64,000 nt of DNA from contig CAYVHI010000003.1 in NCBI GenBank assembly GCA_964450945.1, positions 2,191 through 66,190 of the forward strand, given 5' to 3'. The notes under the pieces are model-generated. The model did no database searches and was not told the origin of the DNA. It saw only the letters and a list, made by a program, of their open reading frames with translations. The translations under genes and the position numbers were made by a program. The DNA comes from an uncultured Rickettsiales bacterium. GTDB lineage: Bacteria; Pseudomonadota; Alphaproteobacteria; Rickettsiales; JABDBP01. This document shows, in pieces, positions 20,718 through 53,912 of this stretch (position 1 is the first letter of the stretch; each line of letters opens with the position of its first letter).

Positions 20718-21489
20718 AGACATAAAGGTGCACAAAGGCAAAACGCCACTTGTCTGCCTTACCTGCTACAGCACGCCTTTTGCAAAAATATTAGATAAGC
20801 ATGTGGATATATTGCTGGTTGGCGACTCACTCGGCATGGTGCTTTACGGCATGAAAAATACCCGGGGAGTGACTCTTGATATGATGATAAACCACGGCAA
20901 AGCGGTAGTTAATGCTTCGCGAAAAGCCTTTGTAGTGGTGGATATGCCGTTCGGTTCATACCAGAAATCAAAGCAACAGGCATTGGAGAATTGTAGAAGG
21001 GTTATAAAAGAAACTGGCTGTGATGCAGTGAAGATGGAAGGGGGAACAGAACTTGCAAGTACAGTGAAATTCTTGCGCGAAAAAAATATTGAGGTGATGG
21101 GGCATGTTGGGCTGATGCCCCAATATGTAAAGACTGCTAAGGATTATAAATATAAAGGCCGCACGCCTGAAGAGGCAAAAAAAATAATGGCTGATGCAAT
21201 TGCCATAGAAAAATCAGGGGCATTTTCCATAGTGCTTGAAGCAATAGATGAAAAACTGGCGCGGAATATAACAAAGAAACTTTCTATACCAACTATCGGT
21301 ATCGGCGCATCACTGGCATGTGACGGACAGGTGCTGGTTGCAGAAGACATGCTTGGGCTTGACCCAACATTCAAACCAAGATTTGTAAAAAATTATACAA
21401 AACTTAATGAGGCGGTGGAAAAGGCTGTTAAGGAATATACGAAAGAAGTACGGAGCAGAAAATTTCCAAGTAAAGAACATTTGTTTTAA
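20662..21489 (+). CDS. panB: 3-methyl-2-oxobutanoate hydroxymethyltransferase
   Basis: 'L.CLTCYS..FA...D......LVGDSLGMV..G', 'VV.DMPFGSY', 'KMEGG'. This is the only ATG upstream of the conserved N-terminus, and it overlaps the kinase tail by 56 nt. Confidence 0.88.
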   Translation: MPQDNNSNNNQPRNRLSVKDIKVHKGKTPLVCLTCYSTPFAKILDKHVDILLVGDSLGMVLYGMKNTRGVTLDMMINHGKAVVNASRKAFVVVDMPFGSYQKSKQQALENCRRVIKETGCDAVKMEGGTELASTVKFLREKNIEVMGHVGLMPQYVKTAKDYKYKGRTPEEAKKIMADAIAIEKSGAFSIVLEAIDEKLARNITKKLSIPTIGIGASLACDGQVLVAEDMLGLDPTFKPRFVKNYTKLNEAVEKAVKEYTKEVRSRKFPSKEHLF

Positions 21490-22574
21490 GAAGCTTTTTT
21501 CTTTTTACCGCCATTCTGGCGGAATTCGGTAGCGGATTTCCCGGTATATTCCTTGAAAACGCGGTTGAATGAAGTGATGCTGGTAAAGCCTGTATCAACG
21601 GCAATGGTTGTTATGGATTTTTTTGTCTCCCTTAACATTTCCTTGGCTTCTTTCATGCGCAATTCGTTAGTAAGTTCACGGAAACTTTTTTTAAATTTCC
21701 AGTTCATAACTTTTGATAGGGTGTGTTCATTAACTTTTAATTTTTGTGCCAATTGCTTGCGTGAAAAACCGACCTGGCGGTAAATATTTTCCTTCATCAG
21801 CATATTTTCTATTTTTGCAGCAAGGTTTTTTTCCTTATCAGTGGGTATCCATATGCGCTGAAGTGATTCAAGCTGGAAGCTTTTCGAAAACACCCTGAAT
21901 ATGGAAGAAAGGACAAGATAGATAAAAACAATTCCTATCATGGTGCGTATAAATAGAGCATCTGGTTTTGGCACTTTTAATAAAATTTCGGCAAGATAGG
22001 TTGAGATGGTGATAAGATTAAACATCACCAGTGCGATTATCAGCCAATATTTTGATTTCTTATTTATATCTGCGCTGTCAATGGCGTGTGATTTACGTGA
22101 TATGGTTACCATGAGTAAAAGGAAAACCAGTGCTGTGCCGAACACATGATATAAGTTCATGAGATAAGAAGTATAGAAACAACTGTAGTTCGGAATGCAA
22201 ACTTCCTTGTAGTTAAGAAATAGATAGGTAAAAGAACCGGCGCCAATTATAGGCAAAGTGAGGATAAGGAAATATGGCCATGGTGGCACACGCCCGAGCA
22301 GGCATTGCATGATAAGCAGAAAACTTGCTTCAGGGAGCATGTTTTCTGTCATCACGAAGAAAGACCTTAATACAAATTTAAATGAAATCTGTGCTTCCGC
22401 CAGCGGCAGAAGGTGGACGGCAAAACTGCTGCCAAGGCAGATGAAATAAAAGAAAGGCAGAATAATGCTGAAAAAATTCTTAAATGAAGAGAGCAGATAT
22501 ATAAGCATGAACATGCAGGGAAGCAGCGCTGCAAGCTGTAATCCTTGGGTTATATTTAATGTAAGATTATACAT
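21486..22574 (-). CDS. Membrane-integrated AraC/XylS-family transcriptional regulator
   Basis: About 230 aa of predicted TM helices are followed by an AraC HTH: 'LAQKLKVNEHTLSKV', 'ITTIAVDTGFTSITSFNRVFKEYTGKSATEFR'. Confidence 0.75.
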   Translation of the reverse strand: MYNLTLNITQGLQLAALLPCMFMLIYLLSSFKNFFSIILPFFYFICLGSSFAVHLLPLAEAQISFKFVLRSFFVMTENMLPEASFLLIMQCLLGRVPPWPYFLILTLPIIGAGSFTYLFLNYKEVCIPNYSCFYTSYLMNLYHVFGTALVFLLLMVTISRKSHAIDSADINKKSKYWLIIALVMFNLITISTYLAEILLKVPKPDALFIRTMIGIVFIYLVLSSIFRVFSKSFQLESLQRIWIPTDKEKNLAAKIENMLMKENIYRQVGFSRKQLAQKLKVNEHTLSKVMNWKFKKSFRELTNELRMKEAKEMLRETKKSITTIAVDTGFTSITSFNRVFKEYTGKSATEFRQNGGKKKKAS

Positions 22575-22580
22575 GATTTC

Positions 22581-23300
22581 CTATTCATTTTTATTTTCTG
22601 CCGGCGCAATTTCTTTTAATCTTTCCTTCAGGAAATAATTCATGAAATTCTTTTCCTGCTCAGAAATATTATCGTAATTCTCAAGTATATCCTTAACTAT
22701 ATTTGCAGCCTGCTCTTTCTCGCCCATATCGGCGAGCAGGAATGCCGGCATCTGCCGCGCCCAGAATGGAATATTCTCTATGTTTTTAAGTTTCTGAGCT
22801 ATTACTAATGCAAGATTCTCATCTTCCAGTTTATATTTTGCTATTATTACTGCCTGAACCAGCCACCACCATTTCTTTTCAGGATCGCGCATGGAATGCT
22901 CTTCCAGATAATCGATTACATAGCGGGTATCAGGTTTATACTGTGTGTTGCTATAATAGTAAGCTGCCATGGATGGTATGTAGTTGGACTGGCTATCAAG
23001 ACTATCCAGCAGGCGGAACCACTTGCTGAGTTTACTGTAATCATAAAGGCGGAGCGCAGTGAATCTTCCAAAACTATCGCCAGCGTTCTGGATATTAAAC
23101 CCGAGCCAGCGGAAATAAAATTGTTCATCGCCGAAAGATAAAGCCTTTACGGTGGTTTCTCCTGGAACTTCGGGGACTATCGCAATATCAGGTTTTATGG
23201 TTTTTGTGTGTGACCACAGGAGAAGCTGCAACAGGAAAAATAATAAAATCAGATAATTTCTTTTATAAAAATCTAAGGTGATAGGGTAATTGATTTTCAT
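22581..23300 (-). CDS. Hypothetical membrane-anchored protein (239 aa)
   Basis: N-terminal TM 'LILLFFLLQLLLW' and a helical, Trp-rich body. Start is adjacent to the stop of the upstream gene. Confidence 0.45.
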   Translation of the reverse strand: MKINYPITLDFYKRNYLILLFFLLQLLLWSHTKTIKPDIAIVPEVPGETTVKALSFGDEQFYFRWLGFNIQNAGDSFGRFTALRLYDYSKLSKWFRLLDSLDSQSNYIPSMAAYYYSNTQYKPDTRYVIDYLEEHSMRDPEKKWWWLVQAVIIAKYKLEDENLALVIAQKLKNIENIPFWARQMPAFLLADMGEKEQAANIVKDILENYDNISEQEKNFMNYFLKERLKEIAPAENKNE

Positions 23301-24062
23301 TTAAAATTGTTTGCGTTTAAAATCTGAAATTGCCATCAATAATAGAAATGGTATGTAGATCGCCGCCTGAAATACAAAAACCCATAAATGATCATCTGCC
23401 CCAGGGCCGTATATAAGCCATTTGCTCTTGCCGAACAGATCAAGCCGTGGAAGCACAGTGGAAACCACTAGCATTAGTTTACTCATGAACCAGCTGGCAC
23501 TGAAGACTTCAAATAAGTAGTTATGTATAAGCATGAGGAAGAATCCCATGATGCGTGCGATGAAATAAAAACCAAAACTTGCCAGAACAGAGCTGACTGC
23601 GCTTTTCAAGATCAAAGAAATGAAAAGTGAGAAAGCCACTACTATAAATGCTTCAAACAAAAGACTGATACTCCAGAATATAAGGCCGCCGAAATCAGGA
23701 GATGAAAAAACCGGTACCGCAAGGGTGACTGGTATAACTAAAAAACAGGACAGCACAGCAAACCCAAGCCAGTAGGAAAATACAAATGTTGGCCTGGAGA
23801 TGGGGCGTGAAAGTATAAGTTCAACCTCCCGGTTATCAAATGCCCGGCGTACATGGAAACATACGAATACCATAAGCCCGACCAAAAGTATCATGCGTGA
23901 GGAGCTGGTTATGTATGAAAGTATCATCTGCCCTTCTTCGGTTACCGCTGTTCCACCTAGCAAGGATGATATTGAAATGGCAAAAATTATGGCAATGAAT
24001 AAGGCTATAAACAGCCAATCCCTAACCGCAGTGAGCAATATATAACGCGTTGTAGTAAACAT
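23301..24062 (-). CDS. Polytopic membrane protein, ABC-2-type permease-like
   Basis: Six or so TM segments. 'EVELILSRPISR' resembles the conserved E-x-L-x-x-P-x-x-R of ABC-2 permeases. No ATPase lies adjacent. Confidence 0.5.
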   Translation of the reverse strand: MFTTTRYILLTAVRDWLFIALFIAIIFAISISSLLGGTAVTEEGQMILSYITSSSRMILLVGLMVFVCFHVRRAFDNREVELILSRPISRPTFVFSYWLGFAVLSCFLVIPVTLAVPVFSSPDFGGLIFWSISLLFEAFIVVAFSLFISLILKSAVSSVLASFGFYFIARIMGFFLMLIHNYLFEVFSASWFMSKLMLVVSTVLPRLDLFGKSKWLIYGPGADDHLWVFVFQAAIYIPFLLLMAISDFKRKQF

Positions 24063-24215: not shown

Positions 24216-26027
24216 TTAGAATTTCAAGGGGCGAGGATCGTTTGAAAATTTATTATAAAGTTCCTTGTCGGTTTTTTCAACATTACTTGCTGAGCCAGGA
24301 ATGAGAGTGGCTTTGATGAATATTACGGTTTCTATGGTTTCAGTAAAATCATCCCTGCTATTGAAAAGCCGCCCGGCAATAGGTAGCTGATTAAGTCCCG
24401 GAACGCCGCTTTCATTGTTTTTCGTACGGTTTTCCATCAATCCACCGATAACCATCACCTGACCACTTCTTATTTTTAAGATTGAATCCAGTTCTCTTAC
24501 TTCAATAACCGGGACTTCATTTTTGATACTAGTAGAACCAAGTTTTTGGGCAATGATGGCGGCACCAGGATCAACAACTGTTCCGGTAATGCGTGATAGC
24601 GTAGGGCGGATATTCATGGTAATTTCATTAGTCTGCAAGTTGATAGAAGGTTGCAGAGTTAATATTACGCCGATAGGAACGGTGTTGAGAGTACTTGTTA
24701 TTTTACTTCTGTCTTGCTGGGTGCCGCCTGCGCTTGTATCAGTTCGTTCTTCAAGTTCTATTGTGAAGTAAACAGAGTTTTTGGCAAAAGTAAGCACGGC
24801 CTGCTGATTGTTAATTGCGTTAATACGCGGGCTGGAAAGAGTGCGGGTTGTACCAAATTGCTCCGTAAACGTTGCTACTGCATCTAAACTTATATTATCT
24901 AAACCAAACAATTCATTTTTTACGACATTTACAGTTAGTAAATCTGTTAAACTATCGGTAGGTGTAGAAAAATCTCCCGGTGAATCAAATTCAAAACTTT
25001 TTGAACTAATGGTATTCCATTTAATGCCATTTTTATAGGCATCACTTAATGAGACTTCCAGAATCTTTGCTTCAATCAAGACCTGAGCGGACTGGGCAAC
25101 TTTTATGCTATCGAGATATTTTTTAACTTCACGGTGTTTACGCTCAGTTGCCATGACAGTGACAACACCGGCCTGACGGTTTATATTCACAAAGCTGCCC
25201 GGCGCTTGTTTTGATGGGTCTGGCACGCCGCCTGCGGCAAGCAAGGCTGGGTCTATAGGTGAAGATTTGATAAGTAAACCGGTGCTTGTGCCGGTATAGC
25301 TTGTCAGTATTGTAGCAACCCCGGTTTCTATGGATTTCCATATATCACTGTCATAGTTGGATTTCAGGAGATTTTTTGAACCGGTGGAGAAACTATCTCC
25401 ACCACCACCACTTCCAGTAGCTGCACCGCTGGCTGCACCTGAACTTGCCCCACCACTTGCCTTGGCAGAAAGTACTTTAGTGCTGATATTGACTTCACCC
25501 GAATTGGAACGGATGATATTTAAGAAATCGACGGGATAATTTACGATATATGGCGAATCAATGCTTATCTTCAATATACCGTTCTTCATGGAATATTTAA
25601 GGCCGGCCAGCTCGGATACCCTTTCTATTACTTCAGAAAATGGCCTGTCTTTTGCCCTGAAAATTATGCCGCCCTGGATTCCCGGATCAATTTCTATATC
25701 AATATCGGCCTTCCTTGATAACTCCATGAAAACTTCTTTAATAGGAATTTCTTCGGTAACGGAAATTGTTATTAGTTTATCTTCCGGAAGTTCCGGTGGC
25801 GGCATTATTATATCTGAAATGTCTGGTACAGGAGGGATCGTTGGTGTTTCTGATGAAGAACTTTCAGCAGGTTCTTTATTTTTTCCTATACTCTTATAGT
25901 CTTCTCTTGTTAAGGAAAGTTCATTATCAATGATAGAAGGGTTTGATATTTCCCGGTAATCCCTACACGACGAGGAAAGGAGAAAGCACGAGGCTGCAAC
26001 TAAACTATAAATTATCTTTCTCATCAC
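24216..26027 (-). CDS. Type IV pilus secretin, lipoprotein type (PilQ/MshL-like)
   Basis: Lipobox 'LLSSSC'. Secretin C-domain: 'VLIEAKILEVSLSD', 'PVIEVRELDSILKIRSGQVMVIGGLM', 'VPGLNQLPIAGRLF', 'ETVIFIKATLI'. Confidence 0.85.
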   Translation of the reverse strand: MMRKIIYSLVAASCFLLSSSCRDYREISNPSIIDNELSLTREDYKSIGKNKEPAESSSSETPTIPPVPDISDIIMPPPELPEDKLITISVTEEIPIKEVFMELSRKADIDIEIDPGIQGGIIFRAKDRPFSEVIERVSELAGLKYSMKNGILKISIDSPYIVNYPVDFLNIIRSNSGEVNISTKVLSAKASGGASSGAASGAATGSGGGGDSFSTGSKNLLKSNYDSDIWKSIETGVATILTSYTGTSTGLLIKSSPIDPALLAAGGVPDPSKQAPGSFVNINRQAGVVTVMATERKHREVKKYLDSIKVAQSAQVLIEAKILEVSLSDAYKNGIKWNTISSKSFEFDSPGDFSTPTDSLTDLLTVNVVKNELFGLDNISLDAVATFTEQFGTTRTLSSPRINAINNQQAVLTFAKNSVYFTIELEERTDTSAGGTQQDRSKITSTLNTVPIGVILTLQPSINLQTNEITMNIRPTLSRITGTVVDPGAAIIAQKLGSTSIKNEVPVIEVRELDSILKIRSGQVMVIGGLMENRTKNNESGVPGLNQLPIAGRLFNSRDDFTETIETVIFIKATLIPGSASNVEKTDKELYNKFSNDPRPLKF

Positions 26028-26111: not shown

Positions 26112-26867
26112 TCAGGTAAGATAAAAAAGATTCTTCATTTCAGGGATAAGCAGGCATAAAAGCAGAGCAACCGCCAATGCCGGGCCGAAAGGAAACTCAG
26201 ATTCTTTTTTTATCTTTTGCCAAAAGAATCCAAGCATTGTGCCTAATATGCCACTAATCAGCATGAATGGAACGAACATCCATACACCTAAAAACAATCC
26301 TGCAATGGTAAAAAATTTTACATCACCAAGACCAAGCGATTCACGCTTCTTCCATTTAAAGAAAACCCAGCGCAGGGAAAACGAAATTACAAAACCCAAC
26401 ACCATTCCTGCAAATGAATCAATAAAATCACGTCCGGAAAAGAACGCATAAATTATAGCAAGTACAGAAAGAACTATTTGCAATGAATCAGGGATTATTT
26501 TGTGTTCTAAATCTATGTTAACAATAATTAACAACAACAGGGCGGTTGGTATGATTATAAAAGTTTCTACGCTTATTCCAAATTTTAGATAAATTGTAAC
26601 AAATAAAAATGCAGAAATTATTTCAAGGATAAGATAGCTGGAACTTATGTTTTTTTTGCAGTATCTGCACTTTCCTGAAGTTAAAAGCCATGATATCAGG
26701 GGTATAAGATCATAGTACTTAAGGGGATTCTTGCACTTAGGGCAGTATGACCTTCCAAGCCAGATCTGCTCACCTTTTGGGATGCGGAAAATAGCAACGG
26801 AGGCAAAACTGCCGCAGGCCAGTCCTGTAATGAATATTAGGGATATTAATATGAGTTCGTGGACCAT
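26112..26867 (-). CDS. pilD: Prepilin peptidase / N-methyltransferase (A24 family)
   Basis: 'CPKCKNPL...CRYCKK' zinc-like motif, with catalytic Asp motifs 'DLEHKIIPD' and 'GLGDVKF'. Confidence 0.9.
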   Translation of the reverse strand: MVHELILISLIFITGLACGSFASVAIFRIPKGEQIWLGRSYCPKCKNPLKYYDLIPLISWLLTSGKCRYCKKNISSSYLILEIISAFLFVTIYLKFGISVETFIIIPTALLLLIIVNIDLEHKIIPDSLQIVLSVLAIIYAFFSGRDFIDSFAGMVLGFVISFSLRWVFFKWKKRESLGLGDVKFFTIAGLFLGVWMFVPFMLISGILGTMLGFFWQKIKKESEFPFGPALAVALLLCLLIPEMKNLFYLT

Positions 26868-26956
26868 ATACTGATAGAATAATTACTGTACTTTAGGTAT
26901 AATATAACTTAAAACTTGCACTTGGATATTAGTATATTAATGGTGTAAATAAAGAA

Positions 26957-28402
26957 ATGAAAAAACGCCTTAAAAATTCAATGCGTGGTTTTACATTAAT
27001 ACAGCTTGCTGTAATACTTACCATAGTTTCAGTTGTTTTGACCGGCTTTCTCAATATAGGCTCCTACCAGACAAAAAGACACGAAACTGCAAAAACAGAA
27101 AGAAAAATCGGTAAAGTCATAGAGGCAGTAAAAGAAAGCATATCTGGCCAGGTGAATTTGGGAGCGGGCGGGGCAGGCGGAACCGGGATAGGAATCCCAT
27201 GCCCGGCAGAACCGCTGCCAAAGAACCATGCTAATTTTGGAATATCAAACTGTAATTTTGATCCTTACTCAGTAAGGGATACTTATGGAATATTAACTGG
27301 TGCAGTTCCGGTAAACACCCTGAAGATACCTTATGATATGGCTTATGATGAAAACGGCAACCTTCTTGAATATGTTATGACATATGCATTAAGGACAAAT
27401 ACCGGGCTTGGTGGTGTGGGAGAAGGGAACATAACAGTTATGTTCCCTGGTAGTGATATTCCGGCAGAAGATAAGGCTGCACTTGTTGTTTTCGCTCACG
27501 GTGAAAATGGTACAGGGGCGATGGTTGAGGGCGGTGATGGTGAAAGGCACCCCGGTATAATAAACGATGAAGCAGCTATAGAAAATTTCAACTGTTCGGG
27601 AGGAATAAGTTCTAACAATATTGGCGGAATGCTATGTGGTGGCGGGTATAATAATATTTTCATCAAGCAGGCCCCTAATAAGTATCTAACGAAAAGCACG
27701 AAATTTGACCAGTTATTGGAATATCAGACAGTTTGCCATCTGCTTACCGGAAGGGATTGGGAAGGTTGTTTTGTAGGTTATGCTGATGCTGGCGGCTCTG
27801 ATGGTGGAGGCGCCGGTGGCGCTGCCGGCGGTGCTTCCGGATGCCCTGCAGGTGAAGGTTACTGGGGAGATCCATGTATGGGTAATGGCACACCAACTGG
27901 TGAAGGATATCCTGACCCGCCTGGGGCGCCGCCAGGATATACATGTTGCCAGGCAAGCTTCTACTGCGCCGACCCTAATACCACAAGCCCTACTACGCCG
28001 CCCGATAAATGTGTTGCTGACGTTGGCATACCGGGAGAATGTACATACTTTGATGATGTTGATACGAGTTGCCTTACCGGCGGTGCACCAGGCGGTGGTG
28101 CTGGTGGAGGTGGTTGTGTAACTCATGATGATTGTACTGGCGAACCGGGAAATGTTTGTTGTTTCTCCGGTACATGCATGACATGTTATGGCGGTCCATG
28201 TCAAATGGATAAAGATTGTTACAAAAGCAAAAACAACTTGGTATGCTGTGCAGGTACATGTGCTTATCAATCATGTACCTGTACACCTACTTGTACTGAT
28301 GGAACGCAATGCGGAAGCAGTACAGAGTGTGTTAACAACTGCTGCGACAGTTTTACAGGAACCTGCGTTACACCACCCCCAACAGGGATGTGCTTACCTT
28401 AA
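26957..28402 (+). CDS. Giant pilin-like protein (481 aa) with class-III signal and Gln at mature position +5; Gly- and Cys-rich C-terminal half
   Basis: 'MKKRLKNSMRG|FTLIQLAVILTIVSVV' prepilin motif. 'YDENGNLLEYV' echoes the pseudopilin DPWGN-x-Y motif. 34 Cys by my count, 20 of them in the last ~95 aa. Confidence 0.75.
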   Translation: MKKRLKNSMRGFTLIQLAVILTIVSVVLTGFLNIGSYQTKRHETAKTERKIGKVIEAVKESISGQVNLGAGGAGGTGIGIPCPAEPLPKNHANFGISNCNFDPYSVRDTYGILTGAVPVNTLKIPYDMAYDENGNLLEYVMTYALRTNTGLGGVGEGNITVMFPGSDIPAEDKAALVVFAHGENGTGAMVEGGDGERHPGIINDEAAIENFNCSGGISSNNIGGMLCGGGYNNIFIKQAPNKYLTKSTKFDQLLEYQTVCHLLTGRDWEGCFVGYADAGGSDGGGAGGAAGGASGCPAGEGYWGDPCMGNGTPTGEGYPDPPGAPPGYTCCQASFYCADPNTTSPTTPPDKCVADVGIPGECTYFDDVDTSCLTGGAPGGGAGGGGCVTHDDCTGEPGNVCCFSGTCMTCYGGPCQMDKDCYKSKNNLVCCAGTCAYQSCTCTPTCTDGTQCGSSTECVNNCCDSFTGTCVTPPPTGMCLP

Positions 28403-28407
28403 GGTAG

Positions 28408-29601
28408 TTGATTATGAACAAATATAATAAAGCATTTACGATGGTGGAACTTTCTATTGTGCTGGGCATCATAGCGCTTTTGATTGGAACATCGGTATCG
28501 CTTGGCTCAGCGCGGATAAATGTTGAGAAAGCGCGCCAGACCCAGCAGAAGATGGAAGTGATAATAGAGAATCTTAAACGCTATATTTCAACCGGAGGTA
28601 ATTATATTGTAAACGGTGTTCCATGTCCGGCACGTGCCGACCTGCCTGATACAAACGCTGCTTTCGGGGTTGAAGATTGTGTATCAGGATCTGGCGCTTT
28701 TGCAAATGGTATATATATAGATGGTGGCCAGGCGACTTTCAGGGTTGGCCAGGTTCCTAACCGAACCATACTTCTGCCTGATGAATATGTGTATGATGGC
28801 TGGGGAAATAAATTTGACTGGGTTATGGATACACGCTACCGGCTGGGGTCAGATTTGCAGGGTGGTGCCGGCACAGAAACAAACCTTATTGAAATAAGGC
28901 CAACACAAGCTGGTGCAGCCATTACCCAAAGCGCAATATTCATGATCATGAGTCACGGCCCTTCCGGTCACGGGGCGTGGAAAAAGAACGGCAGCAGCCG
29001 TATTGACAAAAACGGCCTTATTGCTGATGTAGATAAAATAGAAAATACTTTATGCAATGCCGGTGTTGCAGTTGAGTGTGACGGTGCCGCCCAGAGGGTT
29101 TTTGTAATAAAAGCTGTAAACAGCACGTTTGATGATATTGCTATATATAAAATGCGCTGGCAGCTTATTCCTGCAGTTACCGGCGGTGGCATAATACGCC
29201 ACCCGATAGCGGCATGCAACCGCCCTAACCCTTCTGCTGCCGGTACTGACCAGACTTATGCCTGCCCTACTGACCCACGCAACTGCGTGCCAGCAGCAAT
29301 GGGCAATCAAATGGGTGCATATGCCAGCAGGTTTGTTAATAATGGTGTTAATGGCTGTACTAATGCAACTGGTTGCTGGGAACAATATGAAGCCAGGAAT
29401 GAAACGAATACTGCTATTGGTTCAGATACATATAGATATATGTGTATAGCCCCAGATGGCAGCCCTGTGTTATGCAAGGCAACAGTTAGCGCACTTGCGG
29501 ATGGTGTTGCAATGGCACCTGAAACATGGCTGGAAAGGAATGCTACAGTTACTCCTAACAGAGATAATACTGTAGGTGATTGTATCTGGTGGCAGTATTA
29601 A
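28408..29601 (+). CDS. Large pilin-like protein (397 aa), paralog of the preceding gene
   Basis: 'NKA|FTMVELSIVLGIIALLIG' has Ala at -1 and Glu at +5. Blocks shared with the 481-aa protein: 'G(I/V)PCPA...NA.FG(I/V).(N/D)C', 'YDGWGNKFDWVM', '(A/S)HG..G.GA'. 12 Cys. Confidence 0.75.
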   Translation: MIMNKYNKAFTMVELSIVLGIIALLIGTSVSLGSARINVEKARQTQQKMEVIIENLKRYISTGGNYIVNGVPCPARADLPDTNAAFGVEDCVSGSGAFANGIYIDGGQATFRVGQVPNRTILLPDEYVYDGWGNKFDWVMDTRYRLGSDLQGGAGTETNLIEIRPTQAGAAITQSAIFMIMSHGPSGHGAWKKNGSSRIDKNGLIADVDKIENTLCNAGVAVECDGAAQRVFVIKAVNSTFDDIAIYKMRWQLIPAVTGGGIIRHPIAACNRPNPSAAGTDQTYACPTDPRNCVPAAMGNQMGAYASRFVNNGVNGCTNATGCWEQYEARNETNTAIGSDTYRYMCIAPDGSPVLCKATVSALADGVAMAPETWLERNATVTPNRDNTVGDCIWWQY

Positions 29602-30255: not shown

Positions 30256-30377
30256 TTAAAAAACCTCCCTCTTGCAAAACGCTTTAAAACCCTCTAAAAC
30301 AGGCTCCCAATAACAATTTATTGGAGTTTATGATGTTTTTTTCAGCAGCAAAAAAGAAAATCGAAGGAAGCGAAAAT

Positions 30378-31679
30378 ATGTTTTTTGAAACCGGACTTGC
30401 ACAGGCGGACCCTGAACTGAATAAGGCAATAGAAGGCGAGCTTAAACGCCAGCAGAACCAGATTGAGCTTATTGCTTCTGAGAATATTGTGAGCAAAGCG
30501 GTGCTTGAAGCACAAGGTTCCGTGCTTACCAATAAATATGCAGAAGGTTACCCAGGTAAAAGATATTACGGCGGCTGCCACGAAGTTGATAAAGCGGAAA
30601 CGCTTGCCATAGAGCGCTCAAAAGAATTATTCAGCTGTAAGTACGCAAACGTGCAGCCAAATTCAGGATCACAGGCAAACCAGGGCGTGTTCAATGCGCT
30701 CATCCAACCGGGCGATACTATTCTTGGCCAATCACTTGCTGCCGGTGGACATTTAACCCACGGCGCAGCACCTAACCAATCAGGCAAATGGTTCAAGGCT
30801 ATCCAATATGGTGTAAGAAAAAATGATTCACTGCTTGATTATGAAGAAATGGAAAAGCTTGCGCGCGAAAATAAACCAAAATTAATTGTTGCCGGATTTT
30901 CTGCCTACCCAAGAATCGTAGACTGGAAAAGATTCAGGAAGATCGCAGATGAAGTTGGTGCTTACCTGATGGTTGATATGGCTCACGTTGCAGGGCTTGT
31001 GGCTGCCGGTGCTTACCCATCACCGATCCCATATGCACATGTTGTAACCACCACTACGCATAAGACACTGCGTGGACCAAGGGGTGGATTGATACTTTCC
31101 AACTATCCTGAACTAGTGGTGCGTAAAACCCCTACCGGAAAAGATGTTACGCTTGAGCAGGCAATTAATTCAGCCATATTCCCTGGTATACAGGGCGGCC
31201 CGCTAATGCATGTTATCGCCGCAAAAGCGGTTTCATTCGGTGAGGCGCTGAAACCTGATTTCAAAACCTATGCAAAGCAGGTTGTTGAAAATGCACAGGC
31301 GCTGGCAGAAACTCTGAAGAAACGTGGCCTTGATATTGTTACCGGCGGTACTGATAACCATATAGTGCTGGTAGATCTGCGCCCGAAGAAACTGACCGGC
31401 AAAGATACCGAGGAAAGCCTGGAAAGAGCAGGGCTTACATGTAATAAGAACGCCATACCTTTTGACCCGCTGCCACCAGTGAAAACTTCAGGCGTCAGAC
31501 TTGGCACGCCAGCAGGAACCACAAGAGGTTTCAAGGAAAATGAATTCAAAAAAATTGGTGAACTTATAGGTGATGTGCTGGATGGTTTGGCAGCAAACCC
31601 GGCAGATAATTCTGCAGCAGAGAAAAAAGCTTTAGTGCAAGTTGCTGAATTATGTGCTAAATTCCCTATCTATGGGTAA
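30378..31679 (+). CDS. glyA: Serine hydroxymethyltransferase
   Basis: Start moved to the ATG preceded by 'aggaag'+7 nt. '[31 protein letters not shown]', '[14 protein letters not shown]'. Confidence 0.95.
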
Positions 31680-39703: not shown

Positions 39704-40315
39704 TTATTGAGGCCCCATCATGCATGGAAGAGGAGGGCCTTTCCCATCACCTTTCTTCCACTTACCATCACATTTCTTGCCTTCGAGATATTTATTGAAG
39801 ACTTTTACTGCACGTTCAGCATCCTGAGGATCCTGCAGGGCAGGGTTGGTGATTTGTGATTGTTCGCTGGCATGCTGAACTATATTAGCAGCAACAGAGC
39901 AGCCAAAGGTTTTGTGATTAAGGTTATATGGGTTAAAATGATTATCAACGTAGCGGCTGTCACAATCACGCGCAACTACACGCTCATAAACCAGAACAAC
40001 GTTGTTAGCACCAATCTTAGAAACCATTTTAAATGGAACGCCAAATTGGTTGAGGACTGATTTTACTTCATTGCAGGTATAGCTGTTATCAGTGCAGGTA
40101 AGTTCCGCCCTTGTTGGCTGATCACGGTTTATCCAGCCAGAAACATCACCAATAACAGAAGCGTTGCCGAGACCGAAAGATACGCGCTCAGCTGAAGCAT
40201 CAATAAGGTTGTTAGGATTGCCACGGGTAACATAAGCTTCTTTCTTAAGACGCTCACCACATGCGGAAACTAAAAGAGCAATAACAAGTGCAGATATGAT
40301 TGTAAGTTTTTTCAT
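39704..40315 (-). CDS. cpaD: CpaD-like pilus assembly lipoprotein
   Basis: Start set at 'MKKLTIISALVIALLVSAC' (lipobox), 1 nt after the secretin stop. 'GCSVAANIV......I.NPA.L..P.DA.RA..V...Y..G' resembles CpaD. Confidence 0.6.
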   Translation of the reverse strand: MKKLTIISALVIALLVSACGERLKKEAYVTRGNPNNLIDASAERVSFGLGNASVIGDVSGWINRDQPTRAELTCTDNSYTCNEVKSVLNQFGVPFKMVSKIGANNVVLVYERVVARDCDSRYVDNHFNPYNLNHKTFGCSVAANIVQHASEQSQITNPALQDPQDAERAVKVFNKYLEGKKCDGKWKKGDGKGPPLPCMMGPQ

Positions 40316-40316
40316 G

Positions 40317-41642
40317 TTAATCCACCATATATCCAAAGGTTCCTTCAATTGCAGATTCGCCACCAGGAAGCTGGGACTGTATGCCCCTTCTTCCAGACAT
40401 AGCACCCAGTGAGCCGAGGAAAATATTTTCCAGGTTGCTAGGTGTGCGGTATTCATCAGTAGGCATCTTGATATCCTGCGATTTAACAGGATCAACAAGG
40501 TAAGGAGTTACAGAAATAACCAGCTCTGTCTCATCACGCTCAATGCTTGAGCCACGGAGAATCGAGCCAAGAATAGGGATATTGGAAAGCGGGGTTGCAC
40601 CGCCGGATTCAACATTTATGTTATCTTTCATGAGTCCTGCAATCATGAAGCTTTCGCCTGGTGCAAGCTCAACCGTTGTTTTTGCCTTGCGCGATGAAAT
40701 GCCCGGAACAGAAAAACCAGCAGTTACAACAGCGCCTTTTTCAGAAAGCTGAGAAACTTCAGATTCAACAGTTAGGCGGATGCGGTTCTTGGAAAGAACA
40801 ATTGGAGTGAACTCTAGGCCAACACCATAATTCTTATAATTAACCGCAAGACCTTCACGTGATTGCATAGGAACAGGAATCTGGCCGCCGGAAAGGAAAT
40901 TTGCGGTTTCACCGGAGATAGCTGTCAAATTTGGTTCGGCAAGAACTTTGAACAGGCCATCTTTTTCAAGGGAAGCAAGACCAACAGCGCCATATTTTTT
41001 CAGTGCAGTGCGCTGAACTTCGCCAACACGGACACGCAGCATTACCTGCTGTGAATTCCTTATCTGCATCATGTTTAGGATTTCTTCACGGCTGCCGTGG
41101 CCACGCACATGTTGTTCGACAATATGCATTATACGGCCAGCAATTTCAGCATCAGAAACCATGCCGCTTACAGCAAGGCTTTTGTTTCCGGTTCTTTTTA
41201 TCCCGACAGTTTCGTTAGGGAAATATGTTTTTATTGTATTTTCTATATCAGAATATTCACCACGGTAACCGGTTTGTGTAACAATTTTCTTTTTCTTTTG
41301 TTTAGGTTTTTTCTTAACAGGTGCTTTTGGTGGTTCAGGGGCAAAAGCAGGTTCAGGAGGTGCTACAGCGATTGCAACTGGGGCAGGCGGAGGTGAGGGG
41401 GGAGCTTCAGCCGCCATTGGCATAACCGGGGCAACAACAGGAGCAGGAGGCATTTCTGAGCCAATAGGAGCAACAGGCATTGCCATCATTGGTGTGGGTG
41501 GAGCAGCAGGTGCTGCCATAGGCGCCACCTCATTATTTGTGTTAACACCTAAATTATCAGAGGTTTCCTGAGCGCGGATATTCGCAACTGAAAAAATGAA
41601 AAAGGCCGCACTTATTAAAATGTATTTTCCAACAACCTTCAT
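40317..41642 (-). CDS. cpaC: Tad/Flp-type secretin (CpaC/RcpA family) with ~100-aa Met/Pro/Ala-rich N-terminal insert
   Basis: Signal peptide and a BON-like segment. 'LAEPNLTAISGETANFLSGGQIPVP', 'YKNYGVGLEFTP', 'VPGISSRKAKTTVELAPGESFMIAGL', 'IPILG.ILR', 'ELVISVTPYLV'. Confidence 0.85.
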   Translation of the reverse strand: MKVVGKYILISAAFFIFSVANIRAQETSDNLGVNTNNEVAPMAAPAAPPTPMMAMPVAPIGSEMPPAPVVAPVMPMAAEAPPSPPPAPVAIAVAPPEPAFAPEPPKAPVKKKPKQKKKKIVTQTGYRGEYSDIENTIKTYFPNETVGIKRTGNKSLAVSGMVSDAEIAGRIMHIVEQHVRGHGSREEILNMMQIRNSQQVMLRVRVGEVQRTALKKYGAVGLASLEKDGLFKVLAEPNLTAISGETANFLSGGQIPVPMQSREGLAVNYKNYGVGLEFTPIVLSKNRIRLTVESEVSQLSEKGAVVTAGFSVPGISSRKAKTTVELAPGESFMIAGLMKDNINVESGGATPLSNIPILGSILRGSSIERDETELVISVTPYLVDPVKSQDIKMPTDEYRTPSNLENIFLGSLGAMSGRRGIQSQLPGGESAIEGTFGYMVD

Positions 41643-44311: not shown

Positions 44312-46273
44312 GTGAATTTGACGGGTGACAACAAGGTAAAGCCAGGCGCGGAAGGTACAACGCCTGTTCAACCCGGTATGGTGAAGCCAGCTGGTGCTCC
44401 TGCCGCTGCGGCACCTGTTTCTCCGCCATCTGCTGCTGCAACTAAACCAGCAACTACTGCGCCAAAAGCTACACCTGGAATGCCTGCTTCTCCACAAGCG
44501 GCCGTTCCGCCAAAAGCACCAACTACAACAGCTCCTGCACCAGTGCAGAACCGGCCGCCGCAGGCGCCAGCAGATCCGACTAAAAAAATAACCAGCCATA
44601 TAGGCGAAGTTATGGTGGAGAAAGGTCTTATCTCAAAAGACCAGCTGGAAATTGCACTTAAGGAGCAAAAAGAGCAGGAAGGCACCAAACGCATGATGCT
44701 TGGAAGCATACTTGTAGAAATGGGTTTCATTACGGAAAGTGCGCTTGGCGAAGTTCTGGCTGAATCTACCGGTATTGAAAAATTCGATATGAAATCTGCT
44801 GTGCTTGATCCGAAGCTGGTCAAGCAAATCCCAAAGCATGTGGCAGAAAGATATAAGATGATACCTATAACGATTATCGGGGAAAGCATACAGATTGCCA
44901 TATCAGACGTTTATAACGTGCTGGCGATTGATCAGGCGCACAAGTATTTCCCAAAAAACTTCAAGATCGTTCCCGTTTATGCCGCTGAAGCGGAAATCTC
45001 GGAACTGATAGACCATTACTATGATTATGAAATGTCGGTTGACGGCATCTTAAAAGAAATCGAAACCGGAATAGCGGAAAAGAAAGAACTAAGCGGTGAA
45101 GCAGAAGGATATATCAACCCGACTGTACGCCTTGTGGATGCTCTTCTGGTTGATGCGATAAAACAAGGAGCTTCCGATATCCACCTTGAGCCGGAAGGAG
45201 CTTTCCTGCGCTTACGCTACCGTATTGACGGGCAGATGATGCAGATAAGAAGTTTTCATAATGATTACTGGCCGGCGATAGCCGTTCGTATAAAAATCAT
45301 GTCAGGCATGAACATCGCCGAGGTAAGGAACCCGCAGGATGGACGCATTGCCTATAATGTGCTTGGCAAAGAAGTGGATTTCCGTGTTTCCACCCAGCCG
45401 ACAGTTTACGGCGAAAATATCGTTATGCGTATCCTGGATAAGAAGAAATCACTGGTGACGCTTGATAAGCTTGGGTTCTCTGAACATAACGAAAAAGTAC
45501 TAAAGAAACTTCTGAAAAGACCAGAAGGAATTATAATAGTGACTGGTCCTACCGGTAGCGGTAAGACTACAACGCTTTATTCAATCCTCAGCTATATAAA
45601 TTCGGTTGATGTTAATATCATGACACTGGAAGATCCGGTGGAATACCAGTTGCCGATGATACGCCAATCAAGCGTGCGTGAAGGCGGGATGAATTTTTCT
45701 ACAGGTATGCGCTCACTTATGAGGCAGGACCCTGATATCATATTCGTGGGTGAGGTGCGTGATGAAGACACGGCAAATATGGCACTCCGAGCTGCCATGA
45801 CCGGCCACCAGGTGTTTACTACACTGCACACCAACGATGCGATAGGCGCTATACCACGCCTGGTGGATATTGGTGTGCAGCCGAGCCTTCTTGCCGGCTC
45901 ACTCATCTGCTGCATGGCGCAAAGGCTTGCAAGAAAATTATGCTTAAGTTGCAGGAAAGAAAAAATTGCAACACCTGAAGAATGTAAAATTCTAGGTGTT
46001 GACCCTAAATCTCCACCGAAGATATATGAGCGTGTAGGATGTGATAAATGTAATGGCGGGTATAAGGGCCGAGTCGCAGTTGCAGAGATACTGCCGGTTG
46101 ACAGGGAAATGGATGAATTAATAGCCAATCGCGCAACCCGCAAGGTTATACTTAACCATGCAATTTCAAACGGGTTTGTTACTATGGTGCAAGATGGCAT
46201 CAATAAAGTTTTATTAGGGCAGACTGACCTGGAAGAACTTATCAATACCGTTGATATGACCGAACGCCTATAG
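44312..46273 (+). CDS. pilB: Type IV pilus assembly ATPase (PilB/MshE-like) with ~95-aa Pro/Ala-rich N-terminal extension
   Basis: Walker A 'GPTGSGKTTTLYS', 'EDPVE', 'GEVRD', 'TGH.VF.TLHTND', and a tetra-Cys 'CLSC...CDKC'. The GTG start is uncertain; in-frame ATG alternatives lie downstream. Confidence 0.9.
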   Translation: MNLTGDNKVKPGAEGTTPVQPGMVKPAGAPAAAAPVSPPSAAATKPATTAPKATPGMPASPQAAVPPKAPTTTAPAPVQNRPPQAPADPTKKITSHIGEVMVEKGLISKDQLEIALKEQKEQEGTKRMMLGSILVEMGFITESALGEVLAESTGIEKFDMKSAVLDPKLVKQIPKHVAERYKMIPITIIGESIQIAISDVYNVLAIDQAHKYFPKNFKIVPVYAAEAEISELIDHYYDYEMSVDGILKEIETGIAEKKELSGEAEGYINPTVRLVDALLVDAIKQGASDIHLEPEGAFLRLRYRIDGQMMQIRSFHNDYWPAIAVRIKIMSGMNIAEVRNPQDGRIAYNVLGKEVDFRVSTQPTVYGENIVMRILDKKKSLVTLDKLGFSEHNEKVLKKLLKRPEGIIIVTGPTGSGKTTTLYSILSYINSVDVNIMTLEDPVEYQLPMIRQSSVREGGMNFSTGMRSLMRQDPDIIFVGEVRDEDTANMALRAAMTGHQVFTTLHTNDAIGAIPRLVDIGVQPSLLAGSLICCMAQRLARKLCLSCRKEKIATPEECKILGVDPKSPPKIYERVGCDKCNGGYKGRVAVAEILPVDREMDELIANRATRKVILNHAISNGFVTMVQDGINKVLLGQTDLEELINTVDMTERL

Positions 46274-46283
46274 TTATAATACC

Positions 46284-46400
46284 AACAGATTTTTTGCTTA
46301 TTACTTTGCCTTAGCTACGGGCTCGGTTTGCTCATGTACTATTAAAGTACATTCCGCCACCTCGCCTTGCACTTCCTAGTACTAAACAAAAAAATCTGTT
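46284..46400 (+). repeat. Family-1 nested-hairpin intergenic repeat, copy B (between pilB and pilC)
   Basis: Arms 'aacagatttttt' and 'aaaaaatctgtt', extendable with a bulge. Core is 'gctcatgtac-tattaaa-gtacattcc...cttgcacttcctagta'. Confidence 0.75.
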
Positions 46401-46427
46401 TTAGATAATGAATTAAAAATGTTTTAA

Positions 46428-47633: not shown

Positions 47634-47645
47634 CAACAGTGTCTA

Positions 47646-49903: not shown

Positions 49904-49904
49904 T

Positions 49905-50792: not shown

Positions 50793-50796
50793 AACA

Positions 50797-51567: not shown

Positions 51568-51650
51568 GCATATATATTTGTTGCGAAATGAAATCTGATT
51601 TTTTGCGTATAAGAAATTTTTTAGCAATAGCGGTTACTATGCTCTAAAAA

Positions 51651-53903: not shown

Positions 53904-53912
53904 AATATGCCC

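What the first reader, a model, noticed from the sequence alone, without database searches (positions are those of the whole stretch)
28115..28399. Triplicated 'C-x3-(D/T)(D/Q)C ... (V/N)CC..(F)(S/A/T)GTC' disulfide-knot-like modules at the C-terminus of the 481-aa pilin-like protein
The last ~95 residues hold 20 Cys in three similar units: 'CVTHDDCTGEPGNVCCFSGTC', 'CQMDKDCYKSKNNLVCCAGTC' and 'CTDGTQCGSSTECVNNCCDSFTGTC'. They are preceded by Gly-runs (GGSDGGGAGGAAGG, GGAPGGGAGGGG) and Pro-rich linkers. The spacing recalls small eukaryotic-type cystine-rich modules (knottin, Dickkopf or colipase style) rather than anything normally attached to a pilin. On a surface filament of a probably host-associated alphaproteobacterium, this would make a plausible host-binding or toxin-like tip domain.
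Basis: partly seen in the sequence, partly recalled or inferred. Interest (0 to 1): 0.62.

Follow-up and report, generated by a model that had tools for sequence, protein, structure and literature searches.

The report
Pilin with orphan cysteine-rich tail
A bacterial pilus subunit carries, on flexible glycine linkers, a unique cysteine-packed tail (20 cysteines in 95 residues). The tail has no detectable relative anywhere and is most likely a disulfide-stapled binding module shown at the pilus tip.

Summary
ORF 26957..28402 (+) encodes a 481-aa protein, and its last 95 residues (window 28115..28399) contain 20 Cys. A C-x5-C...CC-x(1-4)-GTC framework occurs three times, preceded by two Gly runs and Pro/Thr-rich stretches. 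The N-terminal ~270 residues form a type IV pilin. It has a class III signal and belongs to an unannotated 'PCPA..DGWGN..SHGxNGxGA..FDD' pilin family. It sits beside a prepilin peptidase, a secretin and a paralogous 397-aa pilin, and PilB, PilC and PilT genes lie in the same window. The Cys-rich tail is an orphan: Pfam, NCBIfam, PDB, an exhaustive phmmer search of 1.84 billion representatives, and plasmid, phage, genome and metagenome scans all found nothing. AlphaFold2 gave only low-confidence models of it. No other family member (about 50 inspected, including a syntenic locus) has such a tail. This protein is also the only one with Gln instead of Glu at mature position 5, the mark of a tip-capping subunit. 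Best reading: a modular tip pilin displaying a disulfide-rich binding array. Knottin or Dickkopf kinship and host association are not shown. It is a new variant of a known kind (modular pilins), of moderate interest.

The parts
26957..26989 (+). Leader peptide MKKRLKNSMRG of the class III (prepilin) signal, ending in Gly(-1)
   Evidence: Read from the sequence. It aligns with the leaders of 12 homologous pilins. A promoter-like site lies at 26909-26938, at chance level.
26990..27052 (+). Hydrophobic alpha1-N segment FTLIQLAVILTIVSVVLTGFL, with Gln (CAG) at mature position 5 instead of Glu
   Evidence: Glu5 is present in 12/12 aligned relatives, in the 3 paralogs of the syntenic L082 locus and in all metagenome relatives. 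AlphaFold2 predicts a helix for residues 14-68. A family profile hits type IV pilins in PDB at E down to 5e-7.
27053..27790 (+). Globular pilin head (to about aa 278) of the 'PCPA..D(G/E)(W/N)GN..(S/A)HGxNGxGA..FD(D/Q)' family, with 6 Cys
   Evidence: 27% identical to the neighbouring paralog over aa 10-263, E 7e-24. A profile finds P0003-P0014. AlphaFold2 pLDDT is mostly 70-94. No Pfam or NCBIfam model covers it.
27791..27841 (+). Gly-rich linker 1: GGSDGGGAGGAAGGASG (aa 279-295)
   Evidence: Low-complexity 12-15 nt DNA periodicity. pLDDT below 50.
27842..28072 (+). Acidic Pro/Thr/Gly-rich segment with 8 Cys (aa 296-372), including one CC doublet; possibly a degenerate fourth module
   Evidence: Cys positions; pI 4.05. 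No family or PDB match.
28079..28114 (+). Gly-rich linker 2: GGAPGGGAGGGG (aa 375-386)
28115..28186 (+). Cys module 1: CVTHDDCTGEPGNVCCFSGTCMTC (aa 387-410, 6 Cys, spacing 5-7-0-4-2)
   Evidence: A low-confidence AlphaFold2 beta-hairpin covers CC..GTC.
28199..28282 (+). Cys module 2: CQMDKDCYKSKNNLVCCAGTCAYQSCTC (aa 415-442, 7 Cys, spacing 5-8-0-3-4-1)
28292..28393 (+). Cys module 3: CTDGTQCGSSTECVNNCCDSFTGTCVTPPPTGMC (aa 446-479, 7 Cys, spacing 5-5-3-0-6-8). The stop codon is at 28400-28402.
   Evidence: This is the best-modelled part of the C-terminal AlphaFold2 model, yet pLDDT is only 59-74.
28408..29601 (+). Paralogous 397-aa pilin (Glu5 present) with its own, unrelated 8-Cys C-terminal extension; probably co-transcribed
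   Evidence: It starts 5 nt after the stop codon of the 481-aa gene.
26112..26867 (-). Prepilin peptidase / N-methyltransferase (A24 family), transcribed divergently
   Evidence: PF06750 at 4.6e-30 and PF01478 at 3.1e-15.
24216..26027 (-). Secretin, MshL-like
   Evidence: PF00263 at 1.1e-29; TIGR02519 at 5.3e-59, below its cut-off.
44312..47633 (+). Pilus assembly ATPase (PilB/GspE-like, with an MshE N-terminal domain and c-di-GMP motif) and platform protein (PilC/GspF-like)
51651..53903 (-). Two PilT/PilU-family retraction ATPases
   Evidence: TIGR01420 at 413 and 467 bits, above its cut-off of 319; PF00437.

Best explanation
ORF 26957..28402 encodes a modular type IV pilin.

Shown:
- It has a prepilin (class III) signal and a pilin head that belongs to an unannotated pilin family.
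- Two flexible Gly-rich linkers follow the head. They bracket an 8-Cys acidic Pro/Thr-rich segment and lead to a 95-residue terminal array of three ~25-34-residue cysteine frameworks (20 Cys).
- The tail is lineage-specific and has no detectable homologue.

Inferred:
- After export and cleavage by the adjacent prepilin peptidase, the even-numbered cysteines (6 + 8 + 20) are oxidised in the periplasm to disulfides. This would give small, rigid, protease- and force-resistant beta-hairpin modules.
- This subunit alone has Gln instead of Glu at mature position 5. It is therefore probably the capping subunit that starts the filament and ends up at its distal tip.
- The type IVa-like machine encoded in the window (secretin, PilB, PilC, two PilT) would then present the cysteine-rich array on a flexible tether as the contact or binding (adhesin) module of a retractile pilus.
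- The ligand (surface, polysaccharide, another cell) is unknown.
For: - ORF and composition.
- Pilin identity: leader plus FTLIQ and a 21-residue hydrophobic helix. Paralog similarity is E 7e-24. Twelve distant homologues all match PF07963. A family profile hits solved type IV pilins at 5e-7. AlphaFold2 gives a long alpha1 helix plus a beta-sheet head at pLDDT 70-94.
- Machinery: the peptidase and secretin are adjacent, and PilB, PilC and two PilT genes are in the window.
- The tail is an add-on. The family normally ends near aa 265 and is 220-320 aa long with 2-6 Cys. The syntenic locus L082 has three pilins of 242-261 aa followed by rpiB, as here, with no tail.
- Gln5 is unique among about 50 family members and neighbouring pilins. 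The cap subunit of tip complexes lacks Glu5 (PMC10191384).
- Grafting of effector modules onto pilins through linkers is established and widespread, and such pilins are thought to be tip-exposed (PMC8179133).
- Cys counts are even in each segment.
- The sequence is identical in four independent assemblies.
- GC3 of the tail (0.32-0.37) matches that of the pilin head (0.34), so the tail is not a recent foreign graft.
Against: - No structure was obtained. AlphaFold2 gives pLDDT below 50 for aa 269-481, and a mean of 51 for the tail modelled alone.
- With no homologue there is no conservation evidence that the tail is under selection, and no polymorphism is available for dN/dS.
- The similarity of the three units is not significant by unbiased tests.
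- Tip location rests on one residue (Gln5) and on analogy.
- No major pilin and no I/J-type minor pilins were found in the window, so the composition of the filament is unknown.
- Codon statistics in the Cys region do not discriminate between frames.
- Expression, oxidation state and binding activity are all untested.
Confidence: 0.5

Rival explanations
1. The protein is a shaft-decorating or structural subunit rather than a tip adhesin. It would be a major or abundant pilin whose tethered cystine-rich tails coat the filament, giving stability, aggregation or biofilm matrix contacts. Alternatively the tail is a tolerated lineage-specific extension with no specific ligand.
For: - No small major pilin was found in the window; only these two large pilins sit next to the peptidase.
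- Family members occur in tandem sets of near-equal size.
- A modular pilin in the filament body is not excluded if the linker is flexible (PMC8179133), and here the linkers are long Gly runs.
- The tail has no homologues, so there is no evidence of purifying selection.
Against: - Gln5 instead of Glu5 argues against efficient incorporation along the shaft.
- A 200-residue tail on every subunit would have to pass the secretin.
- A regular cysteine framework with even Cys counts suggests a folded module rather than junk sequence.
Confidence: 0.22
2. The three modules are true cystine-knot (knottin-like) or Dickkopf/colipase-like mini-proteins. They would act as a toxin or inhibitor (channel, protease or receptor ligand) delivered by the pilus to a eukaryotic host or to prey.
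For: - Modules 1 and 2 have the C-C-CC-C-C order and loop lengths (5-7-0-4-2 and 5-8-0-3-4) that resemble the six-Cys inhibitor cystine knot framework (the comparison is from my own knowledge).
- Knottin sequences have been predicted in bacteria, though without experimental structures as of 2017 (PMC5753296).
- The low-confidence AlphaFold2 model shows beta-hairpins at CC..GTC.
Against: - No Pfam, NCBIfam or PDB sequence match at E<=10. The best single hit is a chance-level E 2.5 match to a scorpion toxin of a different fold class.
- Foldseek found nothing.
- The last loop of module 1 has only 2 residues, shorter than I recall for knottin hairpins (from memory, not checked here).
- Modules 2 and 3 have 7 Cys each.
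- The modules are acidic (pI 4.2).
- There is no evidence of host association.
Confidence: 0.1
3. The cysteines are ligands rather than disulfides. The tail would be a metallothionein-like metal-binding or redox-active domain on a pilus, used for metal sequestration, sensing or electron transfer.
For: The tail is 21% Cys with CC, CxC and CxxC motifs (CMTC, CTC, three CC doublets) in an acidic, Thr/Ser/Gly-rich context.
Against: - The protein is exported to the oxidising periplasm or exterior, where Cys pairs normally form disulfides (general knowledge).
- Cys counts are even.
- It has 5 aromatic residues and a regular framework, unlike metallothioneins.
- No metallothionein family matched.
Confidence: 0.06
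4. Artefact: the tail is not translated as read, because of a frameshift, a wrong frame, a pseudogene remnant or a chimeric assembly.
For: - The +1 frame is also nearly open over 27780..28427.
- Codon log-likelihood in 28115-28399 is no better in frame 0 (-0.39) than in +1 (-0.09).
- One automatic gene call used the +1 frame on a truncated contig.
Against: - Frame 0 runs without interruption from a conserved pilin domain to a stop 5 nt before the next pilin gene.
- Four independent assemblies are identical.
- The low codon score is explained by Cys codons being rare in the reference genes.
- A periodic Cys framework with even counts is a protein-level feature present only in frame 0.
Confidence: 0.03

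Closest known systems
Modular type IV minor pilins (Streptococcus sanguinis PilB with a vWA module, PilC with a lectin module; Raynaud et al. 2021, PMC8179133)
   Same: An N-terminal pilin module carries an extra module grafted C-terminally through a linker. These pilins are proposed to be tip-exposed and to mediate adhesion. The strategy is widespread: more than 1,200 proteins and 264 architectures.
   Different: Here the grafted part is not a recognisable domain. It is an orphan array of tiny Cys-rich frameworks. The linkers are long Gly runs rather than a short loop. The pilin module is large (~270 aa) and from a diderm alphaproteobacterium. No binding has been shown.
CofB / TcpB, the large minor pilins of type IVb pili (ETEC, Vibrio cholerae)
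   Same: A ~500-residue minor pilin in which a pilin domain is joined by a flexible linker to extra C-terminal domains lacking database signatures. They are tip-located and initiate the filament.
   Different: The CofB extras are a beta-repeat domain and a beta-sandwich domain, not Cys-rich. No sequence similarity was found. The machinery here looks type IVa/MSHA-like with PilT.
Glu5-less cap subunits of tip complexes (GspK / PilK family)
   Same: This subunit lacks the conserved Glu5 and is the largest pilin of its set.
   Different: There is no match to GspK/T2SSK or any minor-pilin model. [quoted passage not shown] No I/J partners were identified in the window.
Inhibitor cystine knot mini-proteins (knottins; conotoxin framework VI/VII, spider toxins)
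   Same: A C-C-CC-C-C cysteine order with short loops in modules 1 and 2, a size of about 25-30 residues, and an expected beta-hairpin core (the framework comparison is from my own knowledge).
   Different: No sequence or fold match was found. Modules 2 and 3 have an odd Cys count. The last loop of module 1 has only 2 residues. The modules are acidic, arranged in tandem and covalently attached to a pilin. Disulfide topology is unknown.
Dickkopf / colipase / prokineticin 10-Cys domains
   Same: A 'C-x3-D-x-C ... CC-x-x-G-x-C' flavour at the start of each unit (from my own knowledge of those families).
   Different: Those domains have 10 Cys over ~60-80 residues. No Pfam hit appeared even at E<=10.

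Membership tests
Type IV pilin (class III signal peptide proteins) | Short basic leader ending in Gly(-1), Phe(+1), then about 20 hydrophobic residues forming alpha1-N | tested here: met
   MKKRLKNSMRG|FTLIQLAVILTIVSVVLTGFL. It aligns column by column with 12 homologues. AlphaFold2 predicts a helix for residues 14-68.
Type IV pilin (class III signal peptide proteins) | Glu at mature position 5 | tested here: not met
   Gln (CAG) at +5. Glu is present in all relatives examined. Absence of Glu5 is known for tip-capping subunits (PMC10191384), so this does not exclude pilin status.
Type IV pilin (class III signal peptide proteins) | Match to the N-terminal methylation motif models (PF07963 / TIGR02532) | tested here: inconclusive
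   The protein's own score is 12.5-13.5 bits (E 0.055-0.12), below the cut-off of 21.2. All 13 members of the family alignment match at E<=1, best 1.8e-7. The family profile hits solved pilins at 5e-7.
Type IV pilin (class III signal peptide proteins) | Genomic association with a prepilin peptidase and a filament assembly machine | tested here: met
   An A24 peptidase lies 89 bp upstream, transcribed divergently, with a secretin next to it. PilB, PilC and PilT genes are in the window.
Modular pilin (sensu Raynaud et al. 2021) | A pilin module followed by an additional C-terminal module joined by a linker | tested here: met
   The family head ends near aa 265. Two Gly linkers and about 190 extra residues follow. 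Relatives lack them.
Modular pilin (sensu Raynaud et al. 2021) | [quoted passage not shown] | tested here: not met
   No Pfam, NCBIfam or PDB signature was found. The authors note that CofB-like cases without signatures are probably modular pilins too.
GspK/PilK-type tip cap | Sequence homology to the GspK (T2SSK) / PilK / PilX families | tested here: not met
   No such family appeared in the Pfam or NCBIfam scans.
GspK/PilK-type tip cap | Forms a complex with I/J-type minor pilins at the filament tip | not testable with these tools
   Only two pilin genes were found in the window. This needs the whole genome and experiments.
Knottin / inhibitor cystine knot | Six Cys in the order C-C-CC-C-C with short loops | tested here: inconclusive
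   Module 1 has 5-7-0-4-2 (6 Cys). Module 2 has 5-8-0-3-4 plus a seventh Cys. Module 3 has 7 Cys in a different pattern.
Knottin / inhibitor cystine knot | Knotted disulfide topology I-IV, II-V, III-VI | not testable with these tools
   AlphaFold2 models have pLDDT of 51 or lower over the tail. No coordinates or disulfide map are available.
Knottin / inhibitor cystine knot | Detectable sequence or fold similarity to known knottins | tested here: not met
   PDB phmmer with the whole tail and with each module gave nothing except one E 2.5 chance hit. Foldseek against PDB gave nothing below E 6. Pfam gave nothing.
Dickkopf / colipase / prokineticin | 10-Cys domain matching PF04706, PF01114 or related models | tested here: not met
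   No Pfam hit at E<=10 on aa 296-386 or aa 387-481.
Metallothionein-like metal-binding domain | Cys clusters serving as metal ligands, few aromatic residues, match to metallothionein models | tested here: not met
   No family match. The 95 residues include 5 aromatic residues. Metal binding itself was not testable.

The most novel reading that the evidence does not exclude
The tail is a tandem array of genuine cystine-knot-type mini-proteins that arose independently in a deep-branching alphaproteobacterium. It is displayed at the tip of a retractile type IV pilus as a ligand or toxin for another cell. This would be the first knottin-like array fused to a pilin, and a case of a eukaryote-style disulfide-rich effector scaffold invented de novo in bacteria.
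Probability: 0.1. Interest if true: 0.75.

Novelty: new variant of a known kind. Interest (0 to 1): 0.42.

Why it matters
Modular pilins are how simple pili acquire new binding functions, and most of their grafted modules are still unannotated. This one would add a new kind of cargo: an array of tiny disulfide-stapled modules on Gly tethers. It has no relative among about 15 billion predicted proteins, so it may be a recently invented fold.

If the modules fold as stable knots, they would be of interest as bacterial, periplasm-foldable mini-protein scaffolds. They would also serve as a test case for how a tip subunit lacking Glu5 presents an adhesin.

If the tail is only a lineage-specific extension, the finding is a curiosity restricted to one uncultured alphaproteobacterium.

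Tried and rejected
- **Homology of the tail.**
  - Pfam and NCBIfam on the full protein and on fragments, up to E<=10: nothing.
  - Word-index search of 5.8 billion clusters with the full protein: only the protein itself.
  - Exhaustive phmmer of aa 296-481 against 1.84 billion representatives: only the protein itself.
  - Word-index search with the 95-aa region: no candidates, not even the protein itself, so this result is uninformative.
  - PDB phmmer with the tail and with each module separately: nothing, or E 2.5.
  - tblastn against plasmids and phages at E<=10: nothing.
  - Genome and metagenome scans with the protein: nothing.
- **Recent tandem duplication.** Rejected: there is no DNA repeat under the modules.
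- **Significance of the repeat by unbiased statistics.** Not reached.
- **Antifreeze-type Thr/Cys beta-helix (TCT motifs), hevein/chitin-binding, Stig1, granulin.** I considered these from memory. No Pfam or PDB match supports any of them.
- **C-terminal sorting signal (PEP-CTERM-like).** Rejected: no terminal hydrophobic helix.
- **Taxonomy and lifestyle.**
  - SHMT scan: at most 69% identity to diverse Alphaproteobacteria.
  - The run accessions were not found in the literature.
  - The neighbourhoods of those SHMT loci hold no homologue of the pilin.
- **Polymorphism for dN/dS.** All four assemblies are identical.
- **Antisense ORF 27713..28270 and the +1-frame ORFs.** Treated as shadows of the Cys/Gly-rich coding frame.
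Full report
**Observation.**
The window contains an uninterrupted ORF at 26957..28402 (+) of 481 codons. Residues 387-481 correspond exactly and in frame to the reported 28115..28399. They contain 20 of the protein's 34 cysteines, which is 21%. In 16 Pfam-supported genes of the same window Cys makes up 0.7% of codons. The quoted strings are present:
- CVTHDDCTGEPGNVCCFSGTC at aa 387
- CQMDKDCYKSKNNLVCCAGTC at aa 415
- CTDGTQCGSSTECVNNCCDSFTGTC at aa 446
- the Gly runs at aa 279-295 and aa 375-386
- Pro/Thr-rich stretches such as TTSPTTPPDK and VTPPPTG

The Cys-to-Cys spacing over the tail is 5-7-0-4-2 | 4 | 5-8-0-3-4-1 | 3 | 5-5-3-0-6-8. Cys counts are even in each segment: 6 in the pilin head, 8 in aa 296-372 and 20 in aa 387-481.

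**Is the threefold unit more than chance?**
- The motif C-x5-C-x3-8-CC-x1-4-GTC occurs three times. None of 50,000 composition-preserving shuffles had three occurrences, and only 0.06% had two. 'GTC' three times has p of about 0.003.
- That motif was read off this very sequence, so the test is post hoc.
- Measures that do not use the motif are not significant. The best local self-alignment scored 48 against 39 +/- 6.6 in shuffles, reached in 101 of 1000. The best ungapped Cys autocorrelation was 7 coincidences at shift 28 (p 0.21), and all-residue identity gave p 0.12.
- At the DNA level there is no repeat under the modules. Only the Gly linkers show 12-15-nt periodicity.
- The cysteine density and the recurring CC..GTC framework are therefore real, but a triplication event is not demonstrated. 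If the units share ancestry, the duplication is old.

**Is it a real coding sequence?**
- Frame 0 continues from a conserved pilin domain to a stop codon 5 nt before the next pilin gene.
- Four independent run assemblies (SRR12808458, SRR12816582, SRR12816583, SRR9903539) are 100% identical to the window over the parts they cover (from 24688, 28134, 27539 and 27401 respectively), so all four include at least 28134..28402.
- A codon-usage log-likelihood does not favour frame 0 in 28115-28399 (-0.39 against -0.09 for +1). This is expected, because Cys codons are rare in the reference genes.
- The +1 frame is also nearly open, so the 'long open frame' argument is weak by itself. The protein-level regularity and the continuity with the pilin domain carry the case.
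- GC3 of the tail (0.32-0.37) equals that of the pilin head (0.34). Nothing suggests a recent foreign insertion.

**What the protein is.**
- The N-terminus reads MKKRLKNSMRG|FTLIQLAVILTIVSVVLTGFL, a class III (prepilin) signal.
- Residues 10-263 are 27% identical (E 7e-24) to the protein encoded immediately downstream at 28408..29601 (397 aa).
- A profile of the two paralogs retrieved 12 further proteins. They share GFTLIE, PCPA, DGWGN, SHGxNGxGA and FDD(I/L)V motifs.
- All 13 sequences match the N-terminal methylation motif PF07963. The 481-aa protein itself does so only weakly (12.5 bits, cut-off 21.2).
- The family profile hits the alpha1 helices of solved type IV pilins, with E from 5e-7 to 1e-3.
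- AlphaFold2 with this alignment gives a 55-residue N-terminal helix packed on a beta-sheet head, with pLDDT mostly 70-94 up to about residue 265.
- No Pfam or NCBIfam model covers the head domain.

**Genomic setting.**
- A prepilin peptidase (26112..26867, minus strand) is transcribed divergently 89 bp upstream. An MshL-like secretin (24216..26027, minus strand) lies next to it.
- The window also holds a PilB/GspE-type ATPase with an MshE-type c-di-GMP-binding N-domain, a PilC/GspF platform protein, two PilT-family ATPases that score above the family cut-off, and a separate Tad-like secretin/CpaD pair.
- No small major pilin or Flp pilin was found by motif search.

**The tail is an add-on, and an orphan.**
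- Family members are typically 220-320 residues long with 2-6 Cys, and they end shortly after the FDD motif, near aa 265 of this protein.
- A syntenic locus from another organism (L082) has three tandem pilins of 243, 242 and 261 aa followed by rpiB, as here. None has an extension.
- A few members (the 397-aa paralog, P0005/L085, L089, P0008) carry C-terminal extensions. These are unrelated to each other and to this tail, and none has CC doublets or comparable Cys density.
- The tail itself matched nothing in any search:
  - Pfam and NCBIfam, up to E<=10
  - the word-indexed search of 5.8 billion clusters with the full protein
  - an exhaustive phmmer search of aa 296-481 against 1.84 billion representatives
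  - PDB sequences, with the whole tail and with each module; the single hit was E 2.5 to a scorpion toxin
  - plasmids and phages by tblastn
  - genome and metagenome scans
- AlphaFold2 gave pLDDT below 50 over aa 269-481. The tail modelled alone reached a mean of 51, with short beta-hairpins over the CC..GTC stretches. Foldseek matches were at noise level.

**A clue to position in the filament.**
Mature position 5 is Gln (CAG) in this protein. It is Glu in all 12 aligned relatives, in the three L082 paralogs, in the neighbouring paralog and in every pilin in the 29 metagenome loci. Glu5 forms a salt bridge with the N-terminal amine of the subunit above. [quoted passage not shown] The largest pilin of the set, the only one without Glu5, carrying a tethered extra module, fits a tip-cap role. 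This rests on one residue plus analogy and is an inference.

**Mechanism proposed (inferred unless marked as shown).**
1. The prepilin is inserted in the inner membrane and cleaved after Gly11 by the adjacent peptidase.
2. The 34 periplasm-exposed cysteines form 17 disulfides. These rigidify three (possibly four) ~25-34-residue beta-hairpin modules, which are separated from the pilin head by two flexible Gly linkers (the linkers are shown by the sequence).
3. As the Glu5-less subunit, it primes assembly and is pushed out through the secretin by the PilB-driven machine.
4. The cystine-rich array ends up as the most distal, tethered part of a retractile pilus. Small cross-linked modules there would withstand proteases and pulling force while binding a target.
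5. Nothing identifies the target.

I put this reading at about 0.5. The rivals are shaft decoration or no specific function (0.22), a true knottin-like toxin or inhibitor (0.10), a metal or redox domain (0.06) and artefact (0.03).

**Comparison with known systems.**
- By function and architecture the closest are modular pilins. Examples are S. sanguinis PilB (vWA module) and PilC (lectin module), and the signature-less CofB/TcpB. In these an effector module is grafted onto a pilin, and they are thought to be tip-exposed. More than 1,200 such proteins with 264 architectures are known, and the authors expect many more without database signatures (PMC8179133).
- The architecture criterion for that class is met here. 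The 'recognisable functional domain' criterion is not.
- The knottin resemblance lies only in cysteine order and loop lengths of modules 1 and 2. Similarity to known knottins was tested and not met, and topology is untestable with these tools.
- Membership of the Dickkopf/colipase and metallothionein families was tested by family models and not met.
- Bacterial knottins exist only as sequence predictions in the KNOTTIN database (PMC5753296). I found no paper linking knottins or disulfide-rich modules to pilins.

**Source organism.**
SHMT (30321..31679) is at most 69% identical to that of diverse Alphaproteobacteria (Hyphomicrobiales, Rhodobacterales, Parvibaculum, Micavibrio). The class assignment is therefore reasonable, but there is no close sequenced relative. 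The window encodes His, Pro, pantothenate, riboflavin, pyrimidine and GMP biosynthesis enzymes. This gives no support for a reduced, obligately host-associated lifestyle. The sample metadata could not be retrieved.

**Verdict.**
The feature is a new variant of a known kind: a modular, probably tip-located type IV pilin whose cargo is an orphan, cysteine-dense array on Gly tethers. Interest is moderate (0.42). It is unusual and experimentally tractable, but it is confined to one lineage, has no confident structure, and falls within a class where architectural diversity is already expected.

Noticed in passing
window 28408..29601 (+): The paralogous 397-aa pilin (Glu5 present, Ala at -1 of the cleavage site) has its own 8-Cys C-terminal extension (aa ~262-397), unrelated in sequence to the 481-aa tail. 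The public gene call (P0002, 386 aa) starts at Met12 and so removes the class III signal.
   Followed up: partly
window 27053..27790; loci L082, L085, L089-L117: A pilin head family with the motifs PCPA, DGWGN, SHGxNGxGA and FDD(I/L)V has no Pfam or NCBIfam model. It occurs in tandem sets, and several members carry mutually unrelated C-terminal extensions. The L089 extension contains a second GspG-like 'DPWGN...SFGPNG' motif.
   Followed up: partly
window 39704..41642 (-) and 44312..55223: The 64-kb window holds two filament systems. One is a Tad-like secretin plus a CpaD lipoprotein. The other is a type IVa/MSHA-like set: PilB with an MshE N-domain, PilC, two PilT genes and a TPR protein. Three consecutive ORFs (47646..50792) have no family match and may be divergent alignment-complex proteins.
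   Followed up: partly
window 27780..28427, frame +1; L086 55..294: The +1 frame is almost open across the Gly/Cys-rich region (ORFs 27780..28121 and 28188..28427). It was picked by an automatic gene caller on a contig that truncates the true ORF, which makes it a likely source of spurious protein entries.
   Followed up: yes
window 12029..14992 (+): A 987-aa protein combines a sulfotransferase-like N-terminal region with two GT2 glycosyltransferase domains. It could modify surface polysaccharides or proteins. No link to the Thr/Pro-rich pilin linkers was tested.
   Followed up: no
window 21486..24062 (-): An AraC-family regulator with a long membrane-like N-terminal part sits just downstream of the secretin, together with two unannotated ORFs. 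One of these is a polytopic membrane protein with a weak ABC-2 permease hit. They are possible regulators or accessories of the pilus locus.
   Followed up: no
(tool behaviour): The word-index homology search with the 95-aa Cys-rich query returned no candidate at all, not even the identical protein P0001. Biased-composition words seem to be excluded, so that negative result carries no weight.
   Followed up: no
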